Part shown: positions 4,536-56,942 of the stretch, piece by piece
Position numbering within the stretch: position 1 is the first letter of the stretch
How the letters are laid out: each line of letters begins with the position of its first letter
Origin: Candidatus Omnitrophota bacterium
Lineage (GTDB): Bacteria > Omnitrophota > Gorgyraeia > Gygaellales > Profunditerraquicolaceae
Assembly: GCA_025453395.1 (NCBI GenBank)
Contig: JALOQK010000001.1
Location: 74,244 to 138,243, forward strand
Reading direction: 5' to 3'
Length of the DNA: 64,000 nucleotides
The notes under the pieces: generated by a model
Database searches by the model: none
Told to the model about the DNA's origin: nothing
Seen by the model: the letters and a program-made list of their open reading frames with translations, nothing else
Program-made: the position numbers and the translations under genes

Positions 4536-4712
4536 AAAACTAAAAATTAAAAAGTAAAAGCGCAAAACTATAATTTAAAACTAAAAATTAAGAAAAATGC
4601 ATAAAAAACAAAAGATAAAAGTGTAAAAGATTGTATTAACGTTTTTAGTTTCGTTTTTTTAGTTTTAAATTTTAAGCTGTAGTTTTTAATTTTGCGCTTT
4701 ACGCTTTACATT
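4536..4712. repeat. Heptamer-built AT-rich palindromic element, family B copy 1
   Basis: Left arm aaaagtaaaagcgcaaaactataatttaaaactaaaaatt mirrors right arm agtttttaattttgcgctttacgctttac; abuts the hisG stop. Confidence 0.7.
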
Positions 4713-4713
4713 T

Positions 4714-5595
4714 CTAATATATGACTTTGTTCAACGGATACTCTATAATCCCTGTAGCTCCGGCTCTTTTTAATTCCGGAATAAGCGTGCGCACAACCTT
4801 CTCGTCTATAATTGTTTCCACAGCCACCCATCCGTCTTCTGAAAGGCTGGACACTGTAGGCTTTTTTAACGCGGGCAAAACAGCAAGGATCTTTTTTATG
4901 TCATTTTTCCTTACGTTCATCTTCAGGCCCACCTTAGATTCGGCAGCAATAGCTCCTTGAAGTAAAACCGCGATTTCCTCCATCTTTTGCCTTTTCCATG
5001 GGTCTTTATACGCCTTCTTATTGGCAATAAACTGCGTGGTGGATTCGCAAATCGTATCAATTATCGCCAGCTTATTGGCCTTCAAGCTTCTTCCGGTTTC
5101 AGTCAATTCCACAATCGCATCTACCAGGCCGGAACTTACCTTTACTTCAGTAGCGCCCCAGCTAAACTCCACATCCACATTGATCTTGTTTTTCTTAAAA
5201 TACTGCTTTGTCACATTAACCAATTCTGTGGCAATGCGCTTGCCGCTTAAATCTTTTGCCGATTTAAAACCCGACGCCTCCGGAACAGCCAAAACCCACC
5301 TAACCTTGCTTAAACTCTGTTTAGCGTAAACTAAGTCCGTAACCCGGACGACATCTGAAGCATTTTCCAATATCCAGTCATTGCCGGTAATCCCGCAGTC
5401 AAGCGCCCCGTCAGCGACATAACGCGACATCTCCTGCGCGCGTAAAAGCACCGGCTCTATCTGTCCATCGTCAATAGAAGGAAAATAAGACCTCTCCGAG
5501 GGCAGATTTACATTAAACCCTGCCTTGCGGAACATCTTGAAAGTCGCCTCCTGGAGGCTGCCCTTTGGTAAACCTAATTTCAGAATTTTATCCAT
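4714..5595 (-). CDS. hisG: ATP phosphoribosyltransferase, long form
   Basis: 293 aa with the HisG catalytic region ([18 protein letters not shown]) plus a C-terminal regulatory domain. Confidence 0.8.
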
Positions 5596-5754
5596 AGTAA
5601 TTTAAGCCTTTTGTTAAGTTTTACACTCGCAAAGGCTGTATTATACCTTCCGGATAAGTTTTTGTAAAGAAAATTTACCTGTTTTTATTTACAAAATGTC
5701 CCCTTTGCCTTATAATAGGAGAACACTACTTAAAATGAAATTAAACCTAAATTA

Positions 5755-5885
5755 AGTCATCCGAGAATGAGCCGTGAGTTGTGAGCCGTGAGTTTGGGGC
5801 TAGAGTGAGTTGGGAGGAATTTATATTTAAACTCATCCTTATCCTCATCCCAAACCCAATACCCATTACCCATTTCTCATCCTTA
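5755..5885. repeat. Family A element, copy 2 (inverted relative to copies 1 and 3)
   Basis: gagtgagttgggagg...cccaaacccaatacccattacccatttctcat is the reverse complement of the A1/A3 arms; sits in the divergent hisG/ppiD-like promoter region. Confidence 0.65.
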
Positions 5886-5926
5886 TAAATCAAAGAATTT
5901 ACAATTATTTTATGGAGAAAATATAA

Positions 5927-7912: not shown

Positions 7913-8554
7913 ATGCGCGCAAAAAACAAAAAAGGATTTACTCTTTTAGAATTAATGATTAGCGTAGGCATAACCGCGATTATTTCTGCGGCGATACTTA
8001 ATATCTTTAGCATAGGCCTGTCCTCATGGCAGATCGGGGAAGCAAAAATAGAAAGCCAATATCAGGCAAGAAAGGCAATGCAGGAAATAACCCAGGATTT
8101 AAGACTCAGCAATCCCGGGCATATAGACGTGCTTAATGATAGCAATACCGAGATACAAACAGGAATAGGGACAAAACTGCGTTTTCAAGTGCCTTCATAC
8201 GATAACAAAATAATCCATTTCCTGGGCGGCGATGTGGCTTTAGCCGCGATACGGCTAGATAATGACAATAACATTATCTGGGGCGCGGATAATACCAATG
8301 GTTATTTTATACAATACCAGCTGGTTACATCAGGGACGAACCATCAGTTAGCAAGGGTTATTCTTAACAGCTCCTTTACGCAGGTATCGCGCAGGGTTTT
8401 GGCGAATAATATCTTAGCCGTGGGTTTCAAAGGTATTCCCAGCGGCACCTCTAACCCGCGTTCGGTTGAGATATCCATAACCGGCAGCAATACTATTAAT
8501 ACCGGCCGGTCCGTAAGTTTTAAGCTAACATCACTGATAAATGCACGCAATTAA
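7913..8554 (+). CDS. Type IV minor pilin / pseudopilin, PilW-like
   Basis: Canonical class III signal KKG | FTLLELMISVGI; overlaps the stop of the previous pilin by 1 bp, indicating an operon. Confidence 0.8.
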   Translation: MRAKNKKGFTLLELMISVGITAIISAAILNIFSIGLSSWQIGEAKIESQYQARKAMQEITQDLRLSNPGHIDVLNDSNTEIQTGIGTKLRFQVPSYDNKIIHFLGGDVALAAIRLDNDNNIIWGADNTNGYFIQYQLVTSGTNHQLARVILNSSFTQVSRRVLANNILAVGFKGIPSGTSNPRSVEISITGSNTINTGRSVSFKLTSLINARN

Positions 8555-8637: not shown

Positions 8638-11577
8638 ATGGCGCATATATTAAGAAATAAAAAAGCCTCGGCATTATTGCTTTCTATGATAACGATTATT
8701 TTTCTAATTAGCGTAACCGCGGCCGCGCTTTTGCGTTATATCACTGAACAAAAATCCACAAATTCAACCCTGGGCAGAATCAAAGGCATCTTTAACGCTG
8801 AAGAAGGCATTTACTATGCCTACGCGGAGCTTTCTAAAAATGCCTTTAACTGGGGCACACACGAATGGAAAAACTCTCAACTTCAGAAAATAGCCAATCC
8901 AACTTTCTCTGTTGCACAAGCTGGCTTTAATAACGACGGCTCATATTACGTGGCCAATCATAATTTTAAGGTGATTGTCTTCCCGGAATTAAGAACTGAC
9001 GGCTCTGAAACAAACGTAGTTATTGTCCGCTCACAGGGCCTTGATAATACAGCAGCCCCTTTGCGCACCATAGAGCTGCGCGTGAGCAAACAATCATTGT
9101 TTGATTATTTTTATTTCTTCCCCTATGACAAAACATTTTCTACCGCCACCTACGACGGCGCCGGTTACGGCAAAATGCACGCCAACGGTAATATTTATTT
9201 TTCCGGTAACCCTATTTTCATTAATCTGACGGAATTGAGCACCGCTGGAAAATTCGCCTTGTCCAACTCCCAATACGCTTCCCCCTATTCTTTTGACAAT
9301 AACAACACAACCATTGACGGAAAAGCGGATCTCTATGGATCATCTGCCCCCCCTTACGAATATTACCTGCCAAGCTCTTTATATAACCCGGGTTATTTTT
9401 TTAACGGAAACTACTATCCTTCAGCAAACAATAACGCGACAGTTGACGGAATAAAACTTCCTATAACATTAGCTACCTCTTGGAAATGGGACCAATACTC
9501 CGGGACAAAAACACAAGCAGAAGTGCCTGTTTCATTCACCGTTGATAACAATGCTCTTTCCTGGCTTGCCAGCAATAAAAGTTTTCTCCCCCCGGCTGAC
9601 TACGCTTCTTTTTCAGCAGCTGTAATAGACGGCACAACGGATAGCTTCTGGAACGCCTGGAAAGCCGCCAATTACACAGACGCAAATACAAGCACCACGG
9701 GAAACTTGGCAAGGGCTTATTGGACAACCTTTTTGGGGCCTACTTATATAAACAATTACGTGAATAACGAATGGTGGACAGATTTAGTTTATGGCAATGG
9801 CCGGACAACCGATGCGAGCTCGGATTTAATTGATGTCAATTTCCTGGACACATCGCAACAAACATCTGACTGGTCAAGCTGGCTATCAGGAAAAAAAGTT
9901 GATATCGTAAAACAGGATACTAACGCTACCGGAACTTTAGATTTGCAAGATATTCTAAAAGATAATTCCAACGGCGGGAAATACCTTACCCCTATAGACA
10001 TACAAACTGATTACAAGGCCAAGGCTTCTTCCGGAGGGATACTCTTAGGTCAAGTTGAAACAAGCGGATATACAGCATGGCTGAATCAACCAAGAACTTT
10101 TACATATTCAGGACATACGTTTAATTATACCATGCGCCAAGACGCAAATGTATATACTTGGGGAACCAACAGGGTAGAGTATATTACAGCTAAAGATGAT
10201 ACTGTTAACCGGTTCTGCGCGGCAGCAGGATATGATCAGGATTGCAGTGACTGCTATGATCTAAGAGATGCTTTTGAATCGGAATTAAGCAGTAATTATT
10301 ATGCCGGTGACGTTATGGGGTGGAACACTGAAGAATTGGAAGAAAAGGGTATTGTAAGCTTTAAAGAATTCTATAACCCGGTCAGGCCTGCCGGATCATC
10401 TTCTTATCTAAATGATTCACAAAATATTGCCTCAGCCAAGAAAACCAAAGCTTTAAATATTGACGTGGAGAAACTGCGCGCCTACCTGGCGGGCAAAGAT
10501 TATAACGGAATTATTTATGTGGAAACGCCAGACGAATCTGACCTTTCTTATGATTATTCGGTCTCTCTTACCAATGCCGGGATATTGCCGGAAAAAGGGT
10601 TAACACTGGTTACCCCGCATAATATTTACGTGAATGGAAGCTTTAACCTTGATTACACAAGAGACAGCGCGACTGAAGCATTCACTCATTATCAAGCAAC
10701 ACATACAGAGAACAACAGCAATGATTATAAATGGCGCAATGCCGCTCTTATAAGCACCAAACGCCTAATTTACACGGTGTCTGACCAATTCTTGGATTAT
10801 GCTGCAAACTTATCTTCTTTCTCAGATATCGCCTCATACCATTACTGGGAACCTAACAGCTCAAGCACATCTTATCCTTATTCATTAGGAAGCTTAAACT
10901 TTATCAATACTTACCTTAATGCTGCCGGGGTAACAGGAAACAATTCTCCGCAGGCGGTAAAAGACTTTTACGCCAAGTACCCGGGCCTAAGCATTCCCGG
11001 TTTATGGACACCTGCGGATATTGAATTCTTAAAATCTAAAGCTGTTTACGACCCCTCTGCGGCAACTGCCGCGAAAGCGCTTCTTGATGCCGGAGAACAA
11101 AATTATGCCACCGCAACTGAATCTAAACAACCCAACAGGGTACTTTATGATATAACTTATAACACCGCTATGGTCTCTGCTTATGACCCCAGCGGTTATA
11201 CCTTAGAGCGCTGGATTAACTCAAGCGGACAAACAGTAAAAAGAAACATTACCGGCGCGTTTATACAGCTTACTGCTGATAAACGCGCTTCTGTGCCATC
11301 AAACTATTCAATAAAAGTTGGAGGAAAATTTTGTTATCAAGTAGGGCCAGGATATGATTATTGGGGTTATTACAGATCTGGCAGGTTTGGGAGCAATCGA
11401 TACGTTCCGCAATTCTCCGACGCATATAACCCCATTTATAATTACGCTTATGAAATTAACTTCGCCAAGAATTCCGCAAGTGGAGCAAGTACCGGCCCCA
11501 TTGCCACAGGCAAAAAGAGTTGGATAGAACTTCCTAATAGCGACTTTTTCCCGGTAAAGAAAATATATTGCCCTTAA
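8638..11577 (+). CDS. Giant PilX-N-domain protein, putative pilus-tip adhesin (979 aa)
   Basis: N-terminus KKASALLLSMITIIFLISVTAAALLRYITEQKST...AEEGIYYAYAEL resembles the PilX_N domain. The rest is N/Y/S/T/G-rich with no catalytic motifs. Last gene of the minor-pilin operon. Confidence 0.6.
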   Translation: MAHILRNKKASALLLSMITIIFLISVTAAALLRYITEQKSTNSTLGRIKGIFNAEEGIYYAYAELSKNAFNWGTHEWKNSQLQKIANPTFSVAQAGFNNDGSYYVANHNFKVIVFPELRTDGSETNVVIVRSQGLDNTAAPLRTIELRVSKQSLFDYFYFFPYDKTFSTATYDGAGYGKMHANGNIYFSGNPIFINLTELSTAGKFALSNSQYASPYSFDNNNTTIDGKADLYGSSAPPYEYYLPSSLYNPGYFFNGNYYPSANNNATVDGIKLPITLATSWKWDQYSGTKTQAEVPVSFTVDNNALSWLASNKSFLPPADYASFSAAVIDGTTDSFWNAWKAANYTDANTSTTGNLARAYWTTFLGPTYINNYVNNEWWTDLVYGNGRTTDASSDLIDVNFLDTSQQTSDWSSWLSGKKVDIVKQDTNATGTLDLQDILKDNSNGGKYLTPIDIQTDYKAKASSGGILLGQVETSGYTAWLNQPRTFTYSGHTFNYTMRQDANVYTWGTNRVEYITAKDDTVNRFCAAAGYDQDCSDCYDLRDAFESELSSNYYAGDVMGWNTEELEEKGIVSFKEFYNPVRPAGSSSYLNDSQNIASAKKTKALNIDVEKLRAYLAGKDYNGIIYVETPDESDLSYDYSVSLTNAGILPEKGLTLVTPHNIYVNGSFNLDYTRDSATEAFTHYQATHTENNSNDYKWRNAALISTKRLIYTVSDQFLDYAANLSSFSDIASYHYWEPNSSSTSYPYSLGSLNFINTYLNAAGVTGNNSPQAVKDFYAKYPGLSIPGLWTPADIEFLKSKAVYDPSAATAAKALLDAGEQNYATATESKQPNRVLYDITYNTAMVSAYDPSGYTLERWINSSGQTVKRNITGAFIQLTADKRASVPSNYSIKVGGKFCYQVGPGYDYWGYYRSGRFGSNRYVPQFSDAYNPIYNYAYEINFAKNSASGASTGPIATGKKSWIELPNSDFFPVKKIYCP

Positions 11578-11580
11578 AAA

Positions 11581-11660
11581 AATAAAGGGGACGGTTCAAA
11601 ATAAAGGGGACGGTTCAAAATAAAGGGGACGGTTCTATTAAATAGAGCCGTCCCCATATT
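11581..11660. terminator. Bidirectional rho-independent terminator with triplicated 19-bp left arm
   Basis: (aataaaggggacggttcaa)x3 then ttaaa tagagccgtcccc; hairpin GGGGACGGTTCTA/TAGAGCCGTCCCC flanked by an A-run upstream and T-run downstream. Lies between convergent genes. Confidence 0.7.
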
Positions 11661-11677
11661 TTTGTTTTTACCTGTTT

Positions 11678-11860: not shown

Positions 11861-11960
11861 TTCTTCTTAACCTCCCCTTTTCAGTTTTCAGCTTTCAGTC
11901 TTCAGCTTTCAGCCGTCAGCAAAAGCTTTAAGCTAATAGCTGACAGCTGATGGCTGATAC
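11861..11960. repeat. Heptad-repeat palindrome (TTCAGCT x5 ... GCTGACAGCTGATGGCTGA), family F
   Basis: ttcagtt ttcagct ttcagtc ttcagct ttcagcc gtcagc | loop | gctgacagctgatggctga; a related element lies at 47305-47351. Confidence 0.65.
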
Positions 11961-12439
11961 TATCTTTCTAACAAATTCTCAAACATTTCTTCGTGTGTCA
12001 CTTCTTCAGAGATTATATGCGAAATAAGATTGTAAGTAACGTGATCTTTGCCAAATGTTTTCTTTAAAATTTTGTGGTACACTTCTATCGCGCCTTGTTC
12101 GGCTTCAGTAACAATACGAATGATCCGGTTGATATCAGCGCTATTCTTGGGAGGCATGGCATATGGGGCATTGGCGTTTTTCTCCAACTCTATAGGATTG
12201 GCAATCGGCACCCCGCCTAATTTTGTGATAAGATCCGCTAGTTCTCCCGCGTGCTCAAGTTCGTCCTTAGCTACCTTCTCCAGCATCTCCTGCATATCTT
12301 CATAGGCCTTGCCGGAAACTATTCTTGCCATATACCAATAAAGGTAAAATGCCAGCCATTCATCCGCGTAGGCCTTATTCAAGTCATGCACTAATTCTTT
12401 AAGGCTTAAATCCACAATTGACCTTGCCTGTTTTCCCAT
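11960..12439 (-). CDS. Ferritin-like diiron protein (bacterioferritin/Dps-like family)
   Basis: 159 aa with paired E..H ligand motifs (DELEHA, EEVTHEE) at ferritin-like spacing. Confidence 0.55.
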   Translation of the reverse strand: MGKQARSIVDLSLKELVHDLNKAYADEWLAFYLYWYMARIVSGKAYEDMQEMLEKVAKDELEHAGELADLITKLGGVPIANPIELEKNANAPYAMPPKNSADINRIIRIVTEAEQGAIEVYHKILKKTFGKDHVTYNLISHIISEEVTHEEMFENLLER

Positions 12440-21235: not shown

Positions 21236-21350
21236 CATCTTTTTTATCTTTTTATTTTGGTTATTGGACATTGGTGTTTGATTATTATTTGGTTATTTAA
21301 CATTTGGTTATTGGTTATTTACTACTTTTACCTTTTTGCTTTATTTATTA
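21236..21350. repeat. 'ttggttatt'-rich element (family G, single arm)
   Basis: ttttggttattggacattggtgtttgattattatttggttatttaacatttggttattggttattt; resembles the arms of the palindrome at 33050-33240. Confidence 0.6.
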
Positions 21351-21363: not shown

Positions 21364-22083
21364 CTAAAGCAAGTAATCCTTTTTCACGCGCTTAATACTT
21401 CTGAAGATGTTTTTCTTCACATCGGGGCAGACTTTTTCCAACTCTTGTATGATGCGGGAAATTCTGGTGCGATTTGAGATGTGGTAATTAGGACATGTGC
21501 AATCATAGGTTTTAAGTTTCTCGGATTTTACAAACCTCTCTATCAACCTTTCCTCCACATAGGCCAAGGGGCGGATAATCTGGATTTTCCCGTGGAATAA
21601 TTCCTGTTTGGGATTCATCGCGGAAATCTCGCCTTGAAAGAAAAGATTTAAAAGCGTAGTCTGGATAATATCGTCAAAATGATGCCCTAATGCCACCTTA
21701 TTACAACCCAACCTGTCCGAACATTTAAAAAGCGCCTTGCGCCTGTTCCAGGCGCACCAAAAACAGGTAATATCCTTTTTCTTCATCTTTCTTAACTCAT
21801 CGGTTTTTTCTATATGATACTCTACCCCCATTTTCTGGAAGTGCTTTTCCAGTTGTTTTGCCGATGATTTGGGATAACCCATGTCAATATGGATAGCTAC
21901 CAGGGAATATTTGATAGGGACAAAGGTCCTTCTGTCGTTTAAAACCCGAAGAAGCGTCAAGCTGTCTTTACCGCCAGAAACAGCAACCGCAACCTTATCG
22001 CCTTCCTGAAGCATATCATAGTCGGTAATTGCCTTTCCGATACGCTTGGAAACATAAAACTCTTCGCCCTTAATAATTGACAT
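21364..22083 (-). CDS. ttcA: tRNA 2-thiocytidine(32) synthetase TtcA (PP-loop ATPase)
   Basis: SGGKDS PP-loop and the CxxC pairs (CFWCAWNRR, CTCPNY) of TtcA. Confidence 0.8.
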   Translation of the reverse strand: MSIIKGEEFYVSKRIGKAITDYDMLQEGDKVAVAVSGGKDSLTLLRVLNDRRTFVPIKYSLVAIHIDMGYPKSSAKQLEKHFQKMGVEYHIEKTDELRKMKKKDITCFWCAWNRRKALFKCSDRLGCNKVALGHHFDDIIQTTLLNLFFQGEISAMNPKQELFHGKIQIIRPLAYVEERLIERFVKSEKLKTYDCTCPNYHISNRTRISRIIQELEKVCPDVKKNIFRSIKRVKKDYLL

Positions 22084-22127
22084 AGCGTTTAATTATACAG
22101 CCTCAAATTAAAAAACCAAACATATTT

Positions 22128-22236
22128 CTTAGCTAAAAAATTAAAGCGTAAAGCTAAAAACTACAGTGCAAAATTAAAAATTTTTAATTTTGAATTATGG
22201 TTTTTAGTTTTACGCTTTTAGCTTTACGCTTTTTGC
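22128..22236. repeat. Family B heptamer palindrome, copy 2
   Basis: aaagcgtaaagctaaaaactacag...ggtttttagttttacgcttttagctttacgcttt. Confidence 0.7.
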
Positions 22237-22240
22237 CTCT

Positions 22241-22600: not shown

Positions 22601-22603
22601 CTA

Positions 22604-23826: not shown

Positions 23827-23836
23827 GCTTATTTGC

Positions 23837-24585: not shown

Positions 24586-24614
24586 TGTTTTGTAATTTAT
24601 TGGAAGACTAGAGG

Positions 24615-24634
24615 TTAGCTAAAGCGTCTACAAA
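24615..24634. repeat. 20-bp direct repeat TTAGCTAAAGCGTCTACAAA (right boundary of cassette)
   Basis: Identical to 22581-22600. Confidence 0.8.
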
Positions 24635-24811
24635 TAATGAATTTTAAATTGTGGTTTTGCCTGCCTGTCTGCCGTAGGCAGACCTACCGGCAGGTAGGCG
24701 TTTTTCGCTTTTAGCTTTACGCTAACTAAGCTCTACCCGAGCTAGTGACAATCTGTCCTGCTTCGCCATTTAACTAACAAAATATGGTATGGCTTCGCAG
24801 AGACTGCGCCA

Positions 24812-29816: not shown

Positions 29817-29825
29817 AATATTTAA

Positions 29826-29912
29826 CTTAAAATTTAAAGCGTAAAGCGTAAAACCATAATTCAAAATTCAAAGTTTTTAGTTTTACGTTTTTCGCTTTAC
29901 GTTTTACGCTTT
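29826..29912. repeat. Family B heptamer palindrome, copy 3
   Basis: aaagcgtaaagcgtaaaaccataattcaaaattcaaagtttttagttttacgtttttcgctttacgttttacgctttc; overlaps the ilvC stop codon. Confidence 0.75.
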
Positions 29913-30899
29913 CTTCATCCAGGGCATCATCTCACGCAGCTGCTTACCCACCTTCTCTATCAAGTGATTATCCCCTGCGGCAATAAGCTTATTGAAATTG
30001 GGGCGGCCTTGTTCATTTTCCTTGATCCATTCCTTGGCAAATTCCCCAGACTGGATTTCTTTTAATATTTTTTCCATTTCCTTGCGCGTTTCTTTGGTAA
30101 TAACTCTTGTGCCGCGGGTTAAATCTCCGTAACAGGCGGTATTAGAAACGCCACGGCGCATCCCGGAAATCCCTCTTTCCTGAATTAAGTCCGTAATAAG
30201 TTTTAACTCATGCAATACTTCAAAATAAGCGATTTCCGGTTGATAGCCTGCGGCAACCAAAGTATCAAACCCGGCCATGATCAATTCGCTTGCCCCGCCG
30301 CATAAAACCGCTTGCTCTCCAAATAGGTCAGTTTCTGTTTCTTCTTTGAAATCCGTCTGGATAACCCCTGCTTTTGTGGCCTTAAGCGCCTTGGCATAGG
30401 CTAAAGCCAGGTCAAGCGCCTTGCCGGTTGCGTTCTGATAAACTGCTACCAACGACGGCACCCCCTTGTCCTCTTCATACATTTTTCTTACCAAAGCTCC
30501 CGGGCCTTTGGGAGCAACCATAAAGACATCCACATCCTTAGGCGGGACTATTTGTTTAAAATGAATATTAAACCCGTGCGAAAAACAAAGCGCCTTGCCG
30601 GCTTTTAAATTCGGCTCAATAGATTCTTTGTAAACTTTTGCCTGCACGTGGTCTTGGGTTAATATCTGGATAATATCCGCCTGCTTGGCTGCTTCCGCGG
30701 CACTTACCGGATCAAACCCATCTTTTTTGGCTTGCTCGTAGTTAGGCGTGCCGGAGGTTTCTGACACAACCACGCTTACCCCTGAATCACGCAAACACAA
30801 AGACTGTCCTCTTCCCTGTATGCCATATCCGATAATCGCGACTTTTTTATTTTTTAATAAATCCAAATTTGCGTCTTTCTCGTAATAAACCTTAATCAT
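29904..30899 (-). CDS. ilvC: Ketol-acid reductoisomerase
   Basis: [17 protein letters not shown] Rossmann region and class I KARI length (331 aa). Confidence 0.9.
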
Positions 30900-33049: not shown

Positions 33050-33240
33050 ACCTCTAATCAATAACCAAACACCAAATTACAATAACCAAATAATCATCAA
33101 ACACCAATTACCAATACCCAAACCTGTTTGGTCCATTGGTTATTGATTATTGGATATTGTTTGATATTTGCCTGCCTGCCGGTAGGCAGGAAATTTGGTT
33201 ATTGATTATTAACATTTAGTTATTGTAATATTGCTCCTTT
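33050..33240. repeat. ~190-bp 'aaccaaa/ttggtt' palindromic element (family G) containing the family C near-palindrome CCTGCCTGCCGGTAGGCAGG at 33170-33191
   Basis: Left arm aataaccaaacaccaaattacaataaccaaataatcatcaaacaccaattaccaata mirrors right arm cattggttattgattattggatattgtttgata...tttggttattgattatt. Confidence 0.7.
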
Positions 33241-34872: not shown

Positions 34873-34892
34873 ATTTTACCTCCAAGTCACAA

Positions 34893-35028
34893 GTTAGCGT
34901 AAAGCGTAAAACGAAAAGTGTAAGACTATAATTTAAAATTCAAAAATTTTAAATTTTGCGCTATAGTTTTACATTTTACGCTTTTCGCTTCTGTTTTTCG
35001 CTTTTCGCTTTTCGCTTTTCGCTTTCTA
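34893..35028. repeat. Family B heptamer palindrome, copy 4, with (TTTTCGC)x6 tandem run
   Basis: gttagcgtaaagcgtaaaacgaaaagtg...gttttacattttacgcttttcgcttctgtttttcgcttttcgcttttcgcttttcgctttc. Confidence 0.75.
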
Positions 35029-46520: not shown

Positions 46521-46656
46521 AGTGAATGAACACCGGCCCATCCGATAGGGCCGGGTGTTAGCAGTAGTGAACACCGGCCCATCCGATAGGGCCGGGTGTT
46601 AGCAGTAGTGAACACCGGCCCATCCGATAGGGCCGGGTGTTAGCAGTAGTGAACAC
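46521..46656. repeat. Tandem array, 3 copies of a 41-bp unit each forming hairpin AACACCGGCCC-ATCCGATA-GGGCCGGGTGTT, directly upstream of ptsN
   Basis: Units begin at about 46521, 46566 and 46607 (plus a partial at 46648). Unit agtgaacaccggcccatccgatagggccgggtgttagcagt. Confidence 0.85.
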
Positions 46657-46662
46657 TCCGCG

Positions 46663-46684
46663 CCTGCCTGCCGGCAGGCAGGCA
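46663..46684. repeat. Family C 22-bp perfect palindrome GCCTGCCTGCCGGCAGGCAGGC
   Basis: Identical core to 23701-23722. Confidence 0.85.
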
Positions 46685-47231: not shown

Positions 47232-47304
47232 TGAGCCTCCCGCGGCTCGAACGCGGCACACCCACCTTAAAAGGGTGGTGCTCTACCAGATGAGCTAGAG
47301 GCCC
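47232..47304 (-). tRNA. tRNA-Lys (anticodon UUU)
   Basis: Revcomp GGGCCTCTAGCTCATCTGGTAGAGCACCACCCTTTTAAGGTGGGTGTGCCGCGTTCGAGCCGCGGGAGGCTCA; anticodon loop CTTTTAA. Confidence 0.85.
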
Positions 47305-47351
47305 AAAATCAGCTATCAGCCGTCAGCTTACAGCTTACAGCTTACAGCTGA
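47305..47351. repeat. Family F heptad-repeat palindrome (ATCAGCTATCAGCCGTCAGC (TTACAGC)x3 TGATT), downstream of frr
   Basis: Shares the TCAGCYNTCAGCYGTCAGC motif with 11895-11955; the outer AATCAGCT/AGCTGATT arms pair. Confidence 0.65.
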
Positions 47352-47912
47352 TTAGATTTCCAAAACTTCTTTTTCTTTATACTTTAATAATTCTTCAACT
47401 TTAGCGGTATATTTATCCGCCGTCTTCTGCAATTCATCTATACCGCGGAATTTATCATCTTCAGAAATAGCCTTGTCTTTTTCAAGCTTCTCTATCGCCT
47501 CTTTGGCGTCGCGGCGGATAGTACGCATAGAAACCCTGCCGTTTTCCGCCATCTGATGCACAACCTTAACCAACTCCTGCCTTCTATCTTTTGACAAAGG
47601 CGGAATAGAAAGCCGGATAATTTTCCCGTCATTAGAAGGAGTAACCCCAAGGCTTGATTTCATAATCGCTTTTTCTATCTCAACAATCGCGGTTATATCC
47701 CAGGGCTGTATGGTGATAAGATGCGCGTCAGAGGCAGAAATAGAAGCCAACTGCTTTAAAAGTGTAGGGGTACCGTAATAATCCACATGCAAACCCTCAA
47801 CCAGCCCCGGATGCGCCCTGCCGGTTCTTACTTCAGAATATTCGCGCGAAACAGATTCTACCGCCTTCTTCATTTTATCTTCTGCGTTATGCAAAACTTC
47901 TTTGATAGTCAT
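47352..47912 (-). CDS. frr: Ribosome recycling factor
   Basis: 186 aa; conserved RRF sequence (VRTGRAHPGLVE, IRRDA). Confidence 0.9.
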   Translation of the reverse strand: MTIKEVLHNAEDKMKKAVESVSREYSEVRTGRAHPGLVEGLHVDYYGTPTLLKQLASISASDAHLITIQPWDITAIVEIEKAIMKSSLGVTPSNDGKIIRLSIPPLSKDRRQELVKVVHQMAENGRVSMRTIRRDAKEAIEKLEKDKAISEDDKFRGIDELQKTADKYTAKVEELLKYKEKEVLEI

Positions 47913-52177: not shown

Positions 52178-53296
52178 ATGGAAAATTTAAAACATATCTT
52201 TATTATCTGCGGAGAGGCATCCGGAGACCTGCACGCCTCTAACTTGGCAGCTGAACTAAAGAAAATAGACCCCTCTATTAAAATATCGGGTGCGGGAGGA
52301 GCTTTATTAGAAAACACCGGGGCAAACCTCTATGCCAACATCAAAGACTTCGCGGTAATGGGGCTATTTGATGTCTTGAAAAAATTACCTCAATTTTTTG
52401 CCCTCAAAAAACTCTTAATTGAGAAAATCCGCTCGGAAGCCCCTGACGCGCTTGTTTTAATTGACTTCTCCGGATTTAACTTACGCTTAGCAAAGGCAGT
52501 AAATAAATCCCTGCCGGTAATTTATTACATCAGCCCCCAGGTCTGGGCGTCAAGGCCGGGGAGGATTCAAACCATCAAGAAATATATTGATAAAATGATC
52601 GTTATCTATGAATTTGAAAAAAAATTCTATGCCAAACACGGTATTGACGCCCAATACGTAGGAAATCCTCTCTTAGATATTGTTAAAGTCCAGCAAATAA
52701 AACAAAATAATCCGATTGTGGCCCTCTTGCCCGGCTCACGCAAACAGGAAATAACATATATTCTTCCGGTAATGCTTGAAACATCCAGGCTTATTAAAGA
52801 AAAAATACCCGATGCCAGCTTCCTTATTGCCAAGCCGGTAAATCTGGATGAATCTATTTATACAGAAGCAATCAATAAATATAAACTGGATGTGCAGATA
52901 ATTTCCGGGAAAACTTATGATTGTATTAACGCGGCGAGTTTCTGCTTGGTTGCCTCTGGCACTGCCACCCTTGAAACCGCAATACTTGAAAAGCCGTTTG
53001 TTGCTATTTATAAAATGAGCTTATTAAATTATCTTTTTTACCGGCCACAGGTAAAGATTCCTTTTATCTGCATAGTCAATATTATTGCCGGCAAGAAAAT
53101 AATCCCCGAATTCATCCAATTCCATGCCAAGGCAAAAAAAATAGCCGGTGAAGTTGTTAAAACCTTGACCGACCATCAATATTACCGCCAGATCAAAGAA
53201 AATCTTGTTTCCTTTAAAGCGCTTCTTGGAAAAACAGGCGCCTCGCAGCGCGCCGCAGAGATTATTTTGAATACTGTCAGAATGGGAAATGAGTAA
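52178..53296 (+). CDS. lpxB: Lipid-A-disaccharide synthase
   Basis: IFIICGEASGDLHASNLAAELKK N-terminus typical of LpxB (GT19). Start placed at MENLKH; the longer ORF starts at 52139. Confidence 0.85.
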   Translation: MENLKHIFIICGEASGDLHASNLAAELKKIDPSIKISGAGGALLENTGANLYANIKDFAVMGLFDVLKKLPQFFALKKLLIEKIRSEAPDALVLIDFSGFNLRLAKAVNKSLPVIYYISPQVWASRPGRIQTIKKYIDKMIVIYEFEKKFYAKHGIDAQYVGNPLLDIVKVQQIKQNNPIVALLPGSRKQEITYILPVMLETSRLIKEKIPDASFLIAKPVNLDESIYTEAINKYKLDVQIISGKTYDCINAASFCLVASGTATLETAILEKPFVAIYKMSLLNYLFYRPQVKIPFICIVNIIAGKKIIPEFIQFHAKAKKIAGEVVKTLTDHQYYRQIKENLVSFKALLGKTGASQRAAEIILNTVRMGNE

Positions 53297-53405
53297 TGGG
53301 TAGTGGGTCCAAGGTGAGAATTGGGTTGAGTAAAAAACTTTAGAATTTTCCCCACAACTCACCCCCACTGTTTACCCACAACTCATGTCTAACAACTCAC
53401 CCTCA
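53286..53405. repeat. Family A element, copy 3 (overlaps last codons of lpxB)
   Basis: gagtaatgggtagtgggtccaaggtgagaattgggttgag...ttttccccacaactcacccccactgtttacccacaactcatgtctaacaactcaccc. Confidence 0.7.
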
Positions 53406-53633: not shown

Positions 53634-53657
53634 ATTACTACCTCCTTAAATAATAAG

Positions 53658-53762
53658 TTTAGCTTAAAGCTAAAAGCGAAAAATTAAAAATCATAATTCA
53701 AAATTTAAAGTTTTTAATTTTACACTATAGTTTTTCGCTTTACGCTTTACGTTTTGCGCTTA
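53658..53762. repeat. Family B heptamer palindrome, copy 5
   Basis: ttagcttaaagctaaaagcgaaaaattaaaaatcataattcaaaatttaaagtttttaattttacactatagtttttcgctttacgctttacgttttgcgct. Confidence 0.75.
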
Positions 53763-53779
53763 ATAATACCATAGAACTA

Positions 53780-55174
53780 TTACTGGAGCAATACTTCTTC
53801 GCCCTTAGCCGGCAAGTAAGCGCTTATGCCTTTTTGGGTTAAAGCCTGAAAAAAACCCTGCGACTGCTCCTCTTCACCGTGCACTAAGAACACCTTTTTC
53901 AAAGGAAGACATGCAGATACAAAATCCATAAGCTCGCCTTGATCGGCGTGCCCGGAAAAAGCATTTATAACCACAACCTCCGCGTTTAACTGATACTCAG
54001 AGCCATAAATTTTCACATATTCCTGTTTATCAACTATCCTTCTTCCTAAAGTATCTTTTGCCATATAGCCCACAACAAGTATAGTGTTGCGCGCATCTTC
54101 AATATTATTCTTCAAGTGGTGTAATACTCTTCCTGATTCACACATGCCGCTTCCAGCAATAATGATCATCGGCCGGTCGTCATTATTCAGGGATTTTGAT
54201 TCCTTCTGGTCGCGCACATAACGTAAATTCAAGAATTCAAAGGGGCTTCTGCCGGAACTTATCGCAAAACGCGCCTCTTTATTCAAATAAGCAAGCTGCT
54301 TAGAAAAAACCTGCGTAATATCTGTTGCCAAGGGGCTGTCCACGTAAACCGGGACAACAGGGATCTGTTTCTTCTCTAAAAGCTCATTTAAGAAATAAAT
54401 CACTTCTTGCGCGCGCTCAAGCGAAAAAGAAGGAATGATGACCTTGCCCTTGCGCGCGATAGTGCGGTTAATGACTTCCTTTAACTTCCCCTGGGCCTGA
54501 TCAATGGGCGTGTGGCTCTTAGCGCCATAGGTAGTTTCAAGGATAAGATAATCTAAATTCTTGGGGATTACCGGATCCTCTAATAACGGCAAGCCTCTTC
54601 TTCCCAAATCCACGGCACAACCAATGCGCAAATTCCCGGCTTCATCTTTAACATCTAAAACAATAATCCCTGACCCTAAGATATGCCCGGCATTAAAAAA
54701 AGTCAAAAAAACATTCTTGGCAATGCACAGCCTTTGATTATAGGAAAGCGGATGAAATTTAGAAGCGGCTTTCGAAGCTTCTCTGCGGTTATATAATGGC
54801 TTGCGGATACTGCCGCCGAAACGCCTGCCGATCTTATTCAAATACCGCGCATCTTCTTCCTGGATCTTCCCGGAATCTTCAAGCATCAGGCTTGCTAAAG
54901 CCTTAGTGGCATGGGTAGAATAGATACGGCTTTTCAAACCGTTCTTGACTACCGTAGGGATATTACCGCAATGGTCAATATGCGCGTGAGAGACAACCAC
55001 AGCGTTTATCTTGTGCGGATTATAAGAAAGGCTGGTATTTACCGCGTAAGACTCATCGCGGCGGCCGTGAAAAAGCCCGGCATCAAGTAAAACCTGGGAC
55101 CTGCCGGAAGTCACAAGATGCGACGAACCGGTCACTGTCCTTACCCCGCCCATAAATCTTATAGTTACAGCCAT
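53780..55174 (-). CDS. MBL-fold beta-CASP ribonuclease (RNase J / CPSF73-like RNA-metabolising metallo-beta-lactamase)
   Basis: IRFMGGVRTVTGSSHLV...LLDAGLFHG N-terminus, HAHIDHCG metal motif, beta-CASP region. Start placed at MAVTIRF; the longer ORF extends to 55219. Confidence 0.75.
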   Translation of the reverse strand: MAVTIRFMGGVRTVTGSSHLVTSGRSQVLLDAGLFHGRRDESYAVNTSLSYNPHKINAVVVSHAHIDHCGNIPTVVKNGLKSRIYSTHATKALASLMLEDSGKIQEEDARYLNKIGRRFGGSIRKPLYNRREASKAASKFHPLSYNQRLCIAKNVFLTFFNAGHILGSGIIVLDVKDEAGNLRIGCAVDLGRRGLPLLEDPVIPKNLDYLILETTYGAKSHTPIDQAQGKLKEVINRTIARKGKVIIPSFSLERAQEVIYFLNELLEKKQIPVVPVYVDSPLATDITQVFSKQLAYLNKEARFAISSGRSPFEFLNLRYVRDQKESKSLNNDDRPMIIIAGSGMCESGRVLHHLKNNIEDARNTILVVGYMAKDTLGRRIVDKQEYVKIYGSEYQLNAEVVVINAFSGHADQGELMDFVSACLPLKKVFLVHGEEEQSQGFFQALTQKGISAYLPAKGEEVLLQ

Positions 55175-55175
55175 A

Positions 55176-56834
55176 TTAGATATCGTAGGTTGAATAAAAA
55201 TAAGGAGTGTACGCTTCAAACTCTGCGGCGCAGGTGTCTACTAATTTAAATGATGGGACAACCCCTAAAGATTTGCGCAGAACACAGATTTCTTCTTCGC
55301 TTTTGCCAACTAATTCCCCAAGCTGCTTATCGCTAAAACCGTATTCCTTGGCCTTTAAAATAAGTTCTTTATCCAAGGTATTTGCCGACGATATTTCTTT
55401 TTCGAATTGGATAATTTGCTTAATATTATGTATAAACCAGGGGTCTATTTGGGTTAATTCATGGATTTTACTTTCATCCACTCCGGCACGCAAAGCATCT
55501 CCGATATAAAATATCCTCTCGGCGTAAGGCACTCTTATTTTATCATAAATAGTCTTTAAGGCTTCCGCGGACGGATTAATATCTTTTGCCCCCTTAAAAA
55601 GAATGCTCTCCAGGCCGGATTTCTTAATTTCAAGCGAACGCAAGCCTTTTTGCAAGGCCTCCTTAAAAGTCCTTCCAATAGCCATCGCCTCGCCCACGGA
55701 TTTCATAGAAATATTAAGCCTGGGGTCGGCCTTAGCAAATTTCTCAAAAGTAAAACGCGGTATTTTCACCACGCAATAATCAATGGACGGCTCAAAACAA
55801 GCTGGAGTCTGTTTAGTAATGTCATTGGGAATTTCATCAAGGGTATACCCGACAGAAAGTTTGGCCGCGATCTTAGCGATAGGAAAACCCGTTGCCTTAG
55901 AGGCAAGCGCGGAGCTTCGCGACACCCGCGGGTTCATTTCAATGACCACCATTCTTCCAGTTGCGGGATGCACGGCGAATTGTATATTTGAACCGCCTGT
56001 CTCAACGCCGATTTCCCGAATACAAGCTATGGCAGCGTCACGCATCTTTTGATATTCTTTATCGGTTAAGGTCTGGGCTGGCGCAACCGTAATACTATCC
56101 CCGGTATGCACACCCATGGGGTCAAGATTCTCAATGGAACAAATGATAACCACATTATCTTTGGTATCGCGCATAACCTCAAGCTCAAATTCCTTCCAGC
56201 CTAAAACCGATTCTTCGACAAGTATTTCGCTTATCATGCTTGCTTCCAAGCCTGTGCGCGCCAGGCCTTTGAACTCTTCCATGCTATAAGCAATGCTTCC
56301 GCCCGTGCCCCCCAATGTAAAACTAGGCCGGATAATTATTGGGAACCCTATCTTCTTGGCTATTGCAAGGGCTTCTTCAATATTGTAGGCAAGCCCGCTC
56401 TTGGGAAGATCAAGCCCGATTTTCTCCATTGCCTGTTTAAAAAGTTTTCTGTCTTCGGCTTTCTTAATCGCCTTGATGTTAGCTCCGATAACTTCCACTT
56501 TATATTTCTTTAAGACGCCTTTCTCTGCTAAACCAACTGCGGTATTCAAAGCTGTCTGCCCGCCAAGCGTGGGCAGAAGCGCGTCAGGCAATTCCTTGGC
56601 AATAATTTTCTCCACCATCTCCACAGTGATCGGCTCAATATAAGTTTTATCCGCCATCTGCGGATCAGTCATGATCGTGGCCGGATTAGAATTAACCAGG
56701 ATTACTTTGTATCCTTCCTGCCTTAGAACCTTGCAGGCTTGAGTGCCGGAATAATCAAATTCACAGGCCTGGCCGATAACAATCGGGCCGGAGCCGATAA
56801 TCATGATTTTCTTAATGTCTGTGCGTTTGGGCAT
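55176..56834 (-). CDS. carB: Carbamoyl-phosphate synthase large subunit, N-terminal half only (split carB: first ATP-grasp plus oligomerisation domain)
   Basis: [25 protein letters not shown] start; ends ...[24 protein letters not shown], exactly where full-length CarB begins its second ATP-grasp domain. No second half in any frame downstream. Confidence 0.8.
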
Positions 56835-56840
56835 ATTAAA

Positions 56841-56942
56841 AGTGTAAAATTAAAAGCGCAAAGCGTAAAATTAAAATTCAAAACTAAGAATTTTGAGCTT
56901 TAAATTATGGTTTTTAGTTTTTCGCTTTTCGTTTTTCGCTCT
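56841..56942. repeat. Family B heptamer palindrome, copy 6
   Basis: gtgtaaaattaaaagcgcaaagcgtaaaattaaaattcaaaactaagaattttgagctttaaattatggtttttagtttttcgcttttcgtttttcgctc. Confidence 0.75.

What the first reader, a model, noticed from the sequence alone, without database searches (positions are those of the whole stretch)
4536..56942. Family B: six or more AT-rich palindromic elements assembled from the heptamers GCGTAAA/TTTACGC at 3' ends of genes
Copies lie at 4536-4712, 22128-22236, 29826-29912, 34893-35028, 53658-53762 and 56841-56942, with a single-arm variant at 2397-2442 between the two transketolase genes. Each is a 90-180-bp imperfect palindrome. The left arm is made of AAAGCGT-type heptamers and the right arm of TTTACGC/TTTTCGC heptamers (for example (TTTTCGC)x6 at 34985-35026). 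The central loop is aattcaaaatt-like. Every copy starts within a few bp of a stop codon; copy 3 overlaps the ilvC stop. The heptameric periodicity and gene-end placement suggest a lineage-specific terminator/attenuator or mRNA-stabiliser element that spreads like a MITE. I do not recognise it as a described repeat.
Basis: seen in the sequence. Interest (0 to 1): 0.65.

Follow-up and report, generated by a model that had tools for sequence, protein, structure and literature searches.

The report
Heptamer-built hairpin repeats between genes
The window holds a real family of ~100-bp AT-rich palindromes built from 7-base units that fill the short gaps between neighbouring genes; they are an Omnitrophota version of the poorly understood heptamer-repeat hairpins known from cyanobacteria and Xanthomonas, and look more like self-propagating DNA than like dedicated transcription terminators.

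Summary
A three-heptamer pattern gives 20 hits against 0.01 expected by chance.

- **Placement.** All flanking genes are on the minus strand, and each copy fills the spacer between one gene's stop codon and the next gene's ribosome-binding site or start.
- **Wider class.** At least five more heptamer palindromes with other 7-mer words lie in the same window.
- **Relatives.** Syntenic relatives have either no spacer at these junctions or a heptamer palindrome built from a different word.
- **Range.** GCG-type heptamer palindromes with the same layout saturated both the genome and the metagenome scans. They occur in many phyla, and Atribacterota-like contigs share a 41-nt stretch with two mismatches.

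The terminator or stabiliser idea found little support:
- mRNA-sense folding is no better than antisense (31 versus 31);
- copies sit between carA and carB;
- ordinary GC-rich terminators exist in the same genome;
- gene contexts match the background.

My best reading is a DNA-level hairpin repeat of the STRR / heptameric-SSR kind. It spreads and nests within genomes, and any effect on RNA is incidental. How it moves is unknown.

The parts
4532..4713 (.). Family B copy 1. It lies between the hisG stop (4714-4716, minus strand) and the SD/ATG of a 33-aa basic ORF (4414..4515, minus). It carries an extra ~70-nt inner heptamer segment, so it is a nested copy.
   Evidence: (I2/I7)
22126..22238 (.). 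Family B copy 2, the best palindrome (50-nt arms, 80% complementary). It lies between the stop of a 70-aa NUMOD3-only ORF (22241) and the start of a PP-loop (TtcA-like) gene (22083).
   Evidence: (I1)
24606..24728 (.). It is degenerate and lies downstream of the malQ stop (24812). Its centre is interrupted by a GC-rich hairpin (about 24657-24700). A canonical terminator follows it at about 24520-24565 on the minus strand.
29824..29914 (.). Family B copy 3, between ilvC and leuA. The ilvC stop (29904-29906) is the TAA of a GCGTAAA unit. No SD precedes the leuA ATG.
   Evidence: (I5, I9, I14)
34892..35028 (.). Family B copy 4, between the stop of a class-II aldolase-like gene (35026-35028) and the ilvD SD/start (34872). 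Its right arm is expanded to 7.4 heptamer units. A TTGTGACT remnant of another heptamer family sits next to the ilvD RBS.
   Evidence: (I3)
53656..53764 (.). Family B copy 5, between the stop of a beta-CASP RNase (53780) and the SD/start of rpmA (L27, 53633).
   Evidence: (I4)
56838..56944 (.). Family B copy 6, between carA and carB. The carA stop (56914-56916) and about its last 10 codons lie in the arm. The carB ATG (56834) follows 4 nt after the other arm and has no SD.
2397..2448 (.). Single-arm A-rich (sense strand) heptamer/octamer array that fills the spacer between the two transketolase subunit genes. It belongs to the same class but is not a Family B member.
33055..33232 (.). Heptamer palindrome of another family (CAATAAC/TTGGTTA words) between ilvD and ilvB. 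It is interrupted by the hairpin GCCTGCCTGCCGGTAGGCAGG. MFE -52.7, z -6.0.
   Evidence: (I6, I12)
11866..11962 (.). Heptamer palindrome of another family (TTTCAGC/AGCTGAN words), between a ferritin-like gene (11960..12439) and, as read by eye only, a small ferredoxin-like gene; the left neighbour was not annotated with any tool.
5762..5882 (.). Heptamer palindrome of another family (GTGAGTT/CTCATCC words) in the divergent hisG/SurA-like intergenic region.
47303..47356 (.). Short heptamer palindrome (CAGCTTA words) between frr and a tRNA. The orthologous junction in metagenome contig L167 carries a GCG-type element instead.
   Evidence: (I13)
53283..53402 (.). Heptamer palindrome (GTGGGTN/CCCACNN words) at the convergent lpxB/rpmA junction.
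21245..21330 (.). Single-arm TTGGTTA heptamer array between the TtcA-like gene and rmuC. It does not form a hairpin (z +0.4).

Best explanation
Family B is one sequence family within a broader class: non-coding palindromes whose two arms are tandem 7-nt units. The 5' arm is (N4 AAA)n and the 3' arm is (TTT N4)n on either strand.

I read it as a DNA-level repeat rather than a dedicated RNA signal, working in four steps:
1. Copies are made from other copies in the same genome, by transposition or gene conversion through a fold-back hairpin or cruciform.
2. Arms grow and shrink in 7-nt steps by replication slippage. Template switching inside the quasi-palindrome keeps the arms complementary.
3. 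New copies, and other small hairpin repeats, land preferentially in or next to existing hairpins. A junction therefore stays occupied while its sequence is replaced, giving 'onion' nesting.
4. In this compact genome with co-directional genes, the only tolerated sites are the 1-25-nt intercistronic spacers, so each element ends up spanning stop codon to RBS. GCGTAAA units carry TAA in all three frames, so encroaching on a gene end costs at most a few codons.

The element is co-transcribed and must fold into a long AU-rich hairpin in the mRNA. Any effect on read-through, processing or translational coupling is a by-product that may sometimes be exploited.

Shown: the family, the hairpins, the occupancy and turnover at orthologous junctions, the cross-phylum spread, and the lack of sense-strand bias. 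Inferred: the copying mechanism, loop-targeted nesting and slippage.
For: - **Real family with a shared centre that is not a simple repeat**.
- **Hairpins on both strands**.
- **Part of a genome-wide habit**: five more heptamer palindromes with other words and two single-arm arrays in the same 64 kb.
- **Filled and empty orthologous sites.** Relatives L123 and L125 have 1-23-nt or overlapping junctions at FBA|ilvD, ilvD|ilvB and ilvC|leuA. L122 and L124 have heptamer palindromes there with different words: GGTCAAA, GTCACAA, AGTTCAT.
- **Same operon, different junctions or words.** L229 has a GCG-type element at ilvN|ilvC, where the window's genes overlap. L167 has one at frr|tRNA, where the window has a CAGCTTA palindrome.
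- **Remnant of a replaced element.** TTGTGACT beside the ilvD RBS is shared with L122's GTCACAA palindrome.
- **Nesting.** Copy 1 has an inner segment. GC-rich hairpins sit inside copy 2b, inside the 33055 palindrome and inside many metagenomic copies. Onion-like arrays occur in L012, L081 and L124.
- **No RNA-sense signature.** Sense versus antisense MFE is 31:31, mean difference 0.13 kcal/mol, p = 0.82. In the window the antisense strand folds as well or better in 5 of 6 full copies.
- **Contexts equal the background.** 37 co-directional, 5 convergent and 4 divergent, against 79/11/10% for all adjacent gene pairs.
- **Assemblies break or switch at the elements.** L001 ends at 29904 and 33132. 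L160 and L237 are 99.3% identical up to the middle of an element and unrelated beyond it.
- **Cross-phylum spread with near-identical cores**. This fits descent or transfer of an element and also explains the 26:4 excess of the A-arm-first layout.
- **Published parallel.** Xanthomonas heptamer repeats sit in the same intergenic sites in two species with variable length and sequence, and 70-75 of them form inverted pairs (PMC4692102).
Against: - I found no transposase, no conserved terminal motif and no target-site duplication, so the copying mechanism is entirely inferred.
- The same junctions are occupied in three related genomes (FBA|ilvD, ilvD|ilvB, ilvC|leuA). Selection for something at those junctions could explain this as well as targeting of existing hairpins does.
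- The 26:4 layout bias and the repeated CGC-UUU(U) motif are what a two-way terminator-like signal would look like.
- Single-arm arrays in the genome scan lean towards convergent over divergent junctions (17:5) and towards A-rich on the sense strand (23:12). This hints at some RNA-level or 3'-end constraint.
- Gene orientation in the metagenomic tests came from a crude longest-ORF caller.
- Only 64 kb of the host genome was available, so I have no genome-wide copy number or replication-strand analysis.
Confidence: 0.5

Rival explanations
1. Operon punctuation at the RNA level, REP- or STRR-like. The long AU-rich hairpin in the polycistronic mRNA would act as a 3'-exonuclease barrier, as an RNase III or other processing site, or as a translational-coupling device. 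It would set the relative expression of neighbouring cistrons, and the family would be kept because of that.
For: - Every copy lies between co-directional genes and is necessarily transcribed if the genes are co-transcribed.
- In copy 6 the carA stop lies inside the 5' arm. The SD-less carB start lies at the foot of the 3' arm, so a terminating ribosome would unmask the carB start.
- leuA and the second transketolase gene also lack an SD behind their arrays.
- The same junctions are occupied in three genomes despite sequence turnover.
- Cyanobacterial 7-bp STRR hairpins between hupS and hupL have been proposed to stabilise transcripts or couple translation (PMC2670836).
Against: - No sense-strand folding advantage.
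- Weak covariation: the RNAalifold covariation term is -0.5, and only 4 of 20 pairs show double changes.
- Relatives L123 and L125 manage the same operon with overlapping genes and no element.
- Elements also occur between divergent genes at the background rate.
Confidence: 0.2
2. Intrinsic, two-way transcription terminator or attenuator. The stem closes with GCG/CGC triplets, each followed by U3-4, giving a stack of weak terminators that works on either strand.
For: - The A-rich arm is 5' and the T-rich arm 3' on both strands in 26 of 30 paired loci from an unbiased scan.
- U-rich tails follow the last CGC in copies 2, 3 and 6.
- A heptamer palindrome occupies the convergent lpxB/rpmA junction.
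- Single-arm arrays favour convergent over divergent junctions, 17:5.
Against: - Copies separate carA from carB, and a related array separates the two transketolase subunits, where termination would be harmful.
- The simple terminator scan did not pick them up.
- The genome has canonical GC-rich hairpin + U7 terminators, one right after copy 2b.
- No sense bias.
- Palindromic copies match the background for divergent junctions.
- The stems are AU-rich with large internal loops.
Confidence: 0.12
3. Protein-binding array. A single-strand or duplex nucleic-acid-binding protein with a ~7-nt footprint would read the phased A3/T3 + N4 units. Cold-shock-domain proteins and ribosomal protein S1 are candidates on RNA; a nucleoid protein is a candidate on DNA. 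The palindrome would be secondary.
For: - AAA/TTT columns are invariant every 7 nt across 18 sequences from at least two phyla, while the 4-nt words vary (A2).
- Single-arm arrays exist without a partner arm.
- S1, Csp and CsrA were proposed as readers of TAACTGA heptamer arrays (PMC4679880).
- An unidentified binding partner is proposed for Nostoc heptamers (bioRxiv 10.1101/2022.06.06.494920).
- That a cold-shock domain covers about 6-7 nt is from my memory, not tested here.
Against: - Many unrelated words occur in the same genome, which would need many readers or a shape-only reader.
- I identified no candidate protein.
- Periodicity is equally expected from slippage in 7-nt steps.
Confidence: 0.1
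4. Integron attC-like recombination sites, or chance low-complexity AT-rich DNA.
For: attC sites are also imperfect palindromes of about 60-140 nt placed directly after ORFs and similar to one another within a genome (from memory).
Against: - The flanking genes are housekeeping genes in synteny conserved across five genomes, not cassettes.
- No RYYYAAC/GTTRRRY ends are evident.
- Chance is excluded.
Confidence: 0.02

Closest known systems
Cyanobacterial STRR (short tandemly repeated repetitive) heptamer sequences, including the STRR hairpins between hupS and hupL
   Same: Both have tandem 7-bp units, lie between genes, and are often arranged so that they can form a hairpin between co-transcribed genes. 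Several different heptamer words coexist in one genome, and the function is unknown (PMC2670836; Mazel 1990 from memory).
   Different: The host here is Omnitrophota, and similar elements occur in MAGs labelled as many other phyla. The words are AT-rich with an A3 tract plus a GCG-type word. The element has a defined ~100-nt architecture with a shared centre. Near-identical copies occur across phyla.
GGGAATC / GGGGAYT heptameric repeats of Xanthomonas and Nostoc (Rehm et al. 2015, PMC4692102)
   Same: Both are intergenic heptamer arrays present in ~186 and 183 patterns per genome (Xcc, Xac). 70-75 of them form inverted pairs able to make stem-loops. They sit between the same genes in related species but differ in length and sequence. 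They are transcribed, and no function has been found.
   Different: Those repeats are G-rich and form quadruplexes, with a preferred four-unit length, and are under-represented between divergent genes. Family B is AT-rich, cannot form G4, and its palindromic relatives showed no depletion at divergent junctions (4 of 46).
REP/BIME elements (REPINs) of Enterobacteria and Pseudomonas
   Same: Both are high-copy extragenic palindromes between co-directional genes in operons. Their sequences are species-specific at conserved positions, other elements nest into them, and proposed side effects include mRNA stabilisation and termination.
   Different: REPs are 20-40 nt, GC-rich, carry a GTAG/CGTC head and are mobilised by RAYT transposases. 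Family B is 84-182 nt, AT-rich and heptamer-periodic, has no conserved head, and no RAYT was seen.
MITEs (e.g. Correia, RUP, ERIC, Nezha)
   Same: Both are small, non-coding, multi-copy, inverted-repeat structured and intergenic, with presence/absence differences between relatives.
   Different: I detected no terminal motif or target-site duplication. The whole element is a periodic palindrome rather than short terminal inverted repeats around a core. No partner insertion sequence is known.
TAACTGA direct heptamer repeats of Beggiatoaceae, Cyanobacteria and Bacteroidetes (MacGregor 2015, PMC4679880)
   Same: Both are intergenic heptamer arrays that can overlap gene ends (the unit contains stop codons) and lie directly upstream of start codons that often lack an SD. 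Both have a scattered cross-phylum distribution that suggests transfer with no known mechanism.
   Different: The TAACTGA sets are almost all direct, with one inverted case in 170, and are oriented relative to the downstream start. Family B is palindromic.

Membership tests
Heptameric SSR / STRR-type inverted repeats | Arms made of tandem 7-nt units | tested here: met
   Tandem Repeats Finder reports period-7 arrays in every copy. The alignment shows AAA/TTT columns every 7 nt.
Heptameric SSR / STRR-type inverted repeats | Intergenic location, close to gene ends | tested here: met
   All 7 copies lie in stop-to-start spacers.
Heptameric SSR / STRR-type inverted repeats | Arrays paired in inverted orientation and able to form a stem-loop | tested here: met
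   Inverted repeats I1-I5, I7, I9, I14. MFE -20 to -38 kcal/mol, z -2.4 to -8.7.
Heptameric SSR / STRR-type inverted repeats | Same intergenic sites in related genomes, but variable length and sequence | tested here: met
   FBA|ilvD, ilvD|ilvB, ilvC|leuA and frr|tRNA carry different words in the window, L122, L124 and L167. L123 and L125 are empty at these sites.
REP/REPIN (RAYT-mobilised) | Short (20-40 nt) GC-rich palindrome with a conserved GTAG or CGTC head | tested here: not met
   The elements are 84-182 nt and AT-rich. Across 242 arm ends the outermost unit is only a weak A-GCG-N consensus, with no GTAG/CGTC.
REP/REPIN (RAYT-mobilised) | A RAYT (Y1 transposase) gene in the genome, flanked by the repeats | not testable with these tools
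   Only 64 kb of the genome is available. None of the 30 window proteins I scanned against Pfam is a transposase, and the remaining ORFs were not scanned.
MITE | Defined terminal inverted repeats flanked by a target-site duplication | tested here: not met
   No conserved flank or duplicated bases: T at position -6 is 31% against a ~26% background. Comparison of filled and empty sites shows no duplication. Element boundaries are fuzzy, so this is a weak negative.
MITE | Presence/absence polymorphism between related genomes | tested here: met
   The relatives share only ~82% ilvD protein identity, so no recent insertion event was caught.
Intrinsic (Rho-independent) terminator | Short GC-rich stem, small loop, immediately followed by a U tract on the transcribed strand | tested here: not met
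   The consensus scan did not call them. The stems are ~45 bp, AU-rich and have internal loops. The same genome has canonical examples at 24520-24565(-) and 11610-11665.
Intrinsic (Rho-independent) terminator | Structure favoured on the transcribed strand (G.U rather than A.C mismatches) | tested here: not met
   31 versus 31, p = 0.82, n = 62. In the window the antisense strand folds as well or better.
Integron attC | Follows mobile gene cassettes; R''/L''...L'/R' core sites; integrase nearby | tested here: not met
   The flanking genes are housekeeping genes in conserved synteny. No core-site consensus is visible at the ends. Nothing resembling an integrase is among the 30 Pfam-scanned window proteins; the other ORFs were not scanned.
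Any Rfam family | Match at the gathering threshold | tested here: not met
   Only 4 tRNAs reach the gathering threshold. With E up to 1 there are only sub-threshold plant miRNA-precursor hairpins on copy 4.

The most novel reading that the evidence does not exclude
The ~100-nt A-tract-phased heptamer palindromes form a previously unrecognised superfamily of mobile hairpin elements shared across phyla. They appear in MAGs labelled Omnitrophota, Atribacterota, Chloroflexota, Acidobacteriota, Bacteroidota, Planctomycetota and others. They would home into existing hairpins at intercistronic junctions and replace one another there, using an unknown mobilising activity that may not be a transposase. 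Heptamer periodicity would be a signature of that activity rather than of ordinary polymerase slippage.
Probability: 0.25. Interest if true: 0.75.

Novelty: new variant of a known kind. Interest (0 to 1): 0.5.

Why it matters
Heptanucleotide repeats have been reported as the most abundant long simple repeats in most prokaryotic genomes examined (Mrazek 2007, as summarised in PMC4679880). More than 30 years after the cyanobacterial STRRs were described, they still have no accepted origin or function. Three results here turn 'why seven, and how do they spread?' into a question that comparative genomics can address:
- the same architecture, and nearly the same sequence, fills operon junctions in uncultivated Omnitrophota and Atribacterota-like genomes;
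- a junction stays occupied while the 7-mer word is replaced;
- there is no mRNA-strand signature.

There is also a practical point. These elements break and mis-join metagenome assemblies. They extend or rewrite gene 3' ends (ilvC, carA). They are easily mistaken for terminators in annotation.

Tried and rejected
- **Promoter/terminator consensus scan.** Promoter-like sites are not above shuffles (46 versus 40.4). A symmetric TTNAAA-N17-TATAGT pair inside copy 4 is most likely AT-rich chance. The elements are not called as terminators.
- **Rfam.** Nothing at gathering or E-value thresholds.
- **Target-site duplication and terminal motif.** MFE-defined boundaries over-extended into the flanks. 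Phase-defined boundaries gave no conserved end or duplication.
- **Covariation.** RNAalifold on 18 homologues gave a weak consensus. Most pairs are invariant A-U and uninformative.
- **Strain-level polymorphism.** The only other contigs encoding identical window proteins are the same assembly at 100% identity, plus a short Logan contig that ends at the repeats.
- **Viral carriers.** Only 3 hits in IMG/VR, so phages are not an obvious vehicle.
- **Period spectrum by a home-made array finder.** Too crude to use.
- **Taxonomy of the low-GC contigs by protein names.** The names were truncated. I instead inferred Atribacterota affinity from several other small repeat families shared with named Atribacterota contigs.
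- **Elhai et al. 2008** (small dispersed repeats nested in heptamer arrays) could not be retrieved, so that comparison rests on memory.
- **Integron attC and chance low complexity** were both considered and rejected.

Full report
**1. Observation**

The six listed copies exist at the stated coordinates. MAFFT aligns them to a single consensus: outer AAAGCGN-type heptamers, inner AT-rich heptamers and a shared centre..AAAACYATAATTCAAAATT-AAAG-TTTTTAATTTTA.. (A1).

- The repeat finder reports inverted arms of 32-54 nt at 70-81% complementarity for five of them.
- Tandem Repeats Finder reports period-7 arrays in all of them.
- A three-heptamer pattern with up to 2 mismatches gives 20 matches against 0.01 expected, all inside the family. 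This revealed a seventh, degenerate copy at about 24606-24728.
- All full copies fold into long imperfect hairpins, MFE -20 to -38 kcal/mol and z -2.4 to -8.7.
- The array between the transketolase genes (2397-2448) is a single-arm A-rich array with other words. The family profile does not match it.

**2. Context**

The contig is from a 'Candidatus Omnitrophica' MAG: ilvD is 100% identical to an NCBI/JGI protein on a 272-kb contig. GC is 42.8%, and almost all genes are on the minus strand.

Each copy spans the whole spacer between a stop codon and the next gene's SD or ATG:

| Copy | Upstream gene | Downstream gene |
|---|---|---|
| 1 | hisG | 33-aa basic ORF |
| 2 | NUMOD3 ORF | ttcA-like |
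| 2b | malQ | 2.7-kb insert with small ORFs (see section 8) |
| 3 | ilvC | leuA |
| 4 | aldolase-like | ilvD |
| 5 | beta-CASP RNase | rpmA |
| 6 | carA | carB |

- The ilvC stop is the TAA of a GCGTAAA unit.
- About the last 10 codons of the carA ORF lie in an arm.
- carB, leuA and the second transketolase gene have no SD behind the arrays.

**3. Family B is one of several such families**

The same 64 kb holds heptamer palindromes built from other words:
- 5762-5882;
- 11866-11962;
- 33055-33232;
- 47303-47356;
- 53283-53402.

Their z scores range from -2.3 to -6.0. A further single-arm array lies at 21245-21330. By my count, about 14 of roughly 60 spacers carry 7-nt-periodic arrays.

**4. 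Relatives**

Four syntenic loci with ~82% ilvD identity carry the same gene order, PTS...pfk-FBA-ilvD-ilvB-ilvN-ilvC-leuA-aroE-pilD-malQ-ttcA-rmuC.

- L125 and L123 have overlapping genes or spacers of 1-42 nt at the junctions where the window carries copies 3 and 4 and the 33055 palindrome.
- L122 and L124 carry heptamer palindromes at those same junctions, but with other words: GTCACAA, GGTCAAA, AGTCAAA, AGTTCAT, CAGTTCA.
- Metagenome contig L229 has a GCG-type element at ilvN|ilvC, where the window's genes overlap.
- L167 has one at frr|tRNA, where the window has a CAGCTTA palindrome.
- TTGTGACT next to the ilvD RBS is shared by the window and L122. In L122 it is the last unit of a GTCACAA palindrome, which suggests replacement in the window's lineage.

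Occupancy of a junction therefore persists while the sequence turns over. Within a genome, copies at different junctions resemble each other more than they resemble their positional orthologues.

**5. Range**

- **Genome scan.** Hits came from MAGs labelled Chloroflexota (many), Acidobacteriota, Omnitrophota, Bacteroidota, Planctomycetota, Verrucomicrobiota, Patescibacteria, Atribacterota and Elusimicrobia, among others.
- **Layout.** In 26 loci an A-type array lies upstream of a T-type array within 250 nt. Only 4 loci have the opposite order.
- **Metagenome scan.** I estimate 2.6e-12 per position under uniform base composition, so only a handful of chance hits per 10^12 bases. Host GC ranged from 0.29 to 0.69.
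- **Viruses.** IMG/VR gave only 3 hits.
- **Closest outside copies.** An nhmmer profile of the window copies scores outside copies at up to 80 bits, against 78-89 bits for the window's own compact copies. In A2 the AAA/TTT columns are invariant across 18 sequences. The 5' half of copy 3 differs from L214 by 2 of 41 nt.
- **Affinity of the low-GC contigs.** L214, L129, L147 and L186 (GC 0.32-0.35) share several other small repeat families with contigs named Atribacterota (L012 Ca. Sediminicultor tertius, L015, L080).

So the family is not lineage-specific.

**6. Tests of function**

- **Strand test.** RNA structures under selection should fold better on the transcribed strand. For 62 elements between co-directional ORFs, sense was more stable in 31 and antisense in 31 (mean difference 0.13 kcal/mol, Wilcoxon p = 0.82). 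In the window the antisense strand is as good or better in 5 of 6 copies.
- **Context test.** 37 co-directional, 5 convergent and 4 divergent, against a background of 79/11/10%.
- **Terminator test.** The consensus scan does not call the elements. The genome has canonical GC-rich hairpin + U7 terminators, one about 45 nt downstream of copy 2b and one at 11610-11665.
- **Covariation.** It is weak because most pairs are invariant A-U.
- **Ends.** No conserved terminal motif or target-site duplication.
- **Rfam.** No match.

Points in favour of some RNA or 3'-end constraint:
- the 26:4 layout bias;
- single-arm arrays at convergent versus divergent junctions, 17:5, and A-rich on the sense strand, 23:12;
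- the geometry of copy 6, where ribosomes finishing carA would open the stem that holds the SD-less carB start.

**7. Interpretation**

The evidence fits a DNA-level hairpin repeat best, for three reasons:
- The family has a common origin.
- Both strands show symmetric decay through transition-type mismatches.
- Occupancy shows turnover and nesting. Copy 1 has an inner segment, GC-rich hairpins sit inside copy 2b, the 33055 palindrome and many metagenomic copies, and L012, L081 and L124 show onion-like arrays.

The elements are also assembly or recombination breakpoints.

The ancestral spacers are 1-25 nt, so any tolerated insertion abuts a stop. GCGTAAA units supply TAA in all three frames.

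How copies are made is not shown. I infer hairpin-mediated copying or gene conversion, plus 7-nt slippage and quasi-palindrome correction. RNA-level consequences such as read-through, processing and coupling are likely but unproven.

**8. Relation to known elements**

The class is known:
- Cyanobacterial STRRs are 7-bp repeats that form hairpins between hupS and hupL (PMC2670836).
- Xanthomonas and Nostoc heptameric repeats include 70-75 inverted pairs per genome, lie at the same intergenic sites in sister species, vary in length and sequence, are transcribed, and have no known function (PMC4692102).
- TAACTGA arrays have a scattered cross-phylum distribution (PMC4679880).
- Nostoc heptamers near start codons have been studied experimentally (bioRxiv 10.1101/2022.06.06.494920).

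Family B differs by its AT-rich A3+N4 words, its defined ~100-nt architecture with a shared centre, its hosts, and its near-identical copies across phyla. It fails the tested defining features of REP, MITE, intrinsic terminator and attC.

I rate it a new variant of a known kind, of moderate interest.

Noticed in passing
window 23701-23722, 33170-33191, 46662-46683; variant at about 24657-24700: A perfect 22-nt GC-rich palindrome, GCCTGCCTGCCGGCAGGCAGGC, occurs three times against 0 expected, plus one longer variant. Two of the four sit inside heptamer palindromes. Similar small GC hairpins sit in the centres of many metagenomic heptamer palindromes (e.g. L229, L159, L220). This resembles the 'small dispersed repeats' nested in heptamer arrays of Nostoc, a comparison made from memory.
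   Followed up: partly
window 46527-46656: A perfect 41-nt tandem repeat, 3.2 copies at 100% identity, each unit holding a CACCGGCCC..GGGCCGGGTG hairpin. It lies immediately upstream of, and overlaps by 7 nt, the GTG start of the PTS EIIA gene, and is followed by the GC palindrome.
   Followed up: no
window 11579-11665: A perfect 19-nt x3 tandem repeat (AAAATAAAGGGGACGGTTC) triplicates the left arm of a GC-rich terminator-like hairpin at an apparently convergent gene junction. The lower-coordinate neighbour on the minus strand was read by eye only.
   Followed up: partly
window 22083-24812: About 2.7 kb lies between malQ and the ttcA-like gene. In relative L124 these genes are 18 nt apart. The insert holds small ORFs: a 70-aa protein made only of two NUMOD3 motifs, a CopG/NikA-like 83-aa protein, and three ORFs with no Pfam match. 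It also has its own canonical terminator. Family B copies 2b and 2 bracket it.
   Followed up: partly
window 55176-56834: carB is only 552 aa (the first ATP-grasp half plus the oligomerisation domain) and is followed directly by a beta-CASP RNase gene, so carbamoyl-phosphate synthase large subunit appears to be split. Transketolase is also split into two genes (1470-2396 and 2443-3264).
   Followed up: no
window 4414-4515 (minus strand): A 33-aa, extremely basic ORF (MPCGRKRKRQKIRTHKRKKMRRRLRHLKKRSWG) with a good SD lies directly after Family B copy 1. It may be a small ribosomal-type protein. It would not appear in a gene list with a length cut-off above 33 aa (such as the 80-aa ORF list used here).
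   Followed up: no
L001 (= window 29904-33132); L160 versus L237: A short-read Logan contig of the same organism ends exactly at two heptamer palindromes. Two metagenome contigs are 99.3% identical up to the centre of an element and unrelated beyond it. The repeats therefore break or chimerise assemblies, or mark real rearrangements.
   Followed up: partly
L012 4060-4400 and 5100-5320; L081 around 2010-2400; L124 15430-15530 and 21335-21510: 'Onion' arrangements: several different heptamer families in series on one side and in mirrored order on the other side, around a central hairpin. This suggests repeated insertion into the middle of older palindromes.
   Followed up: partly
window 8638-11577 (+): A 979-aa ORF with no Pfam match at E up to 0.01. 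It lies next to a gene with a type IV pilin-like N-terminal methylation motif (7913-8554).
   Followed up: no
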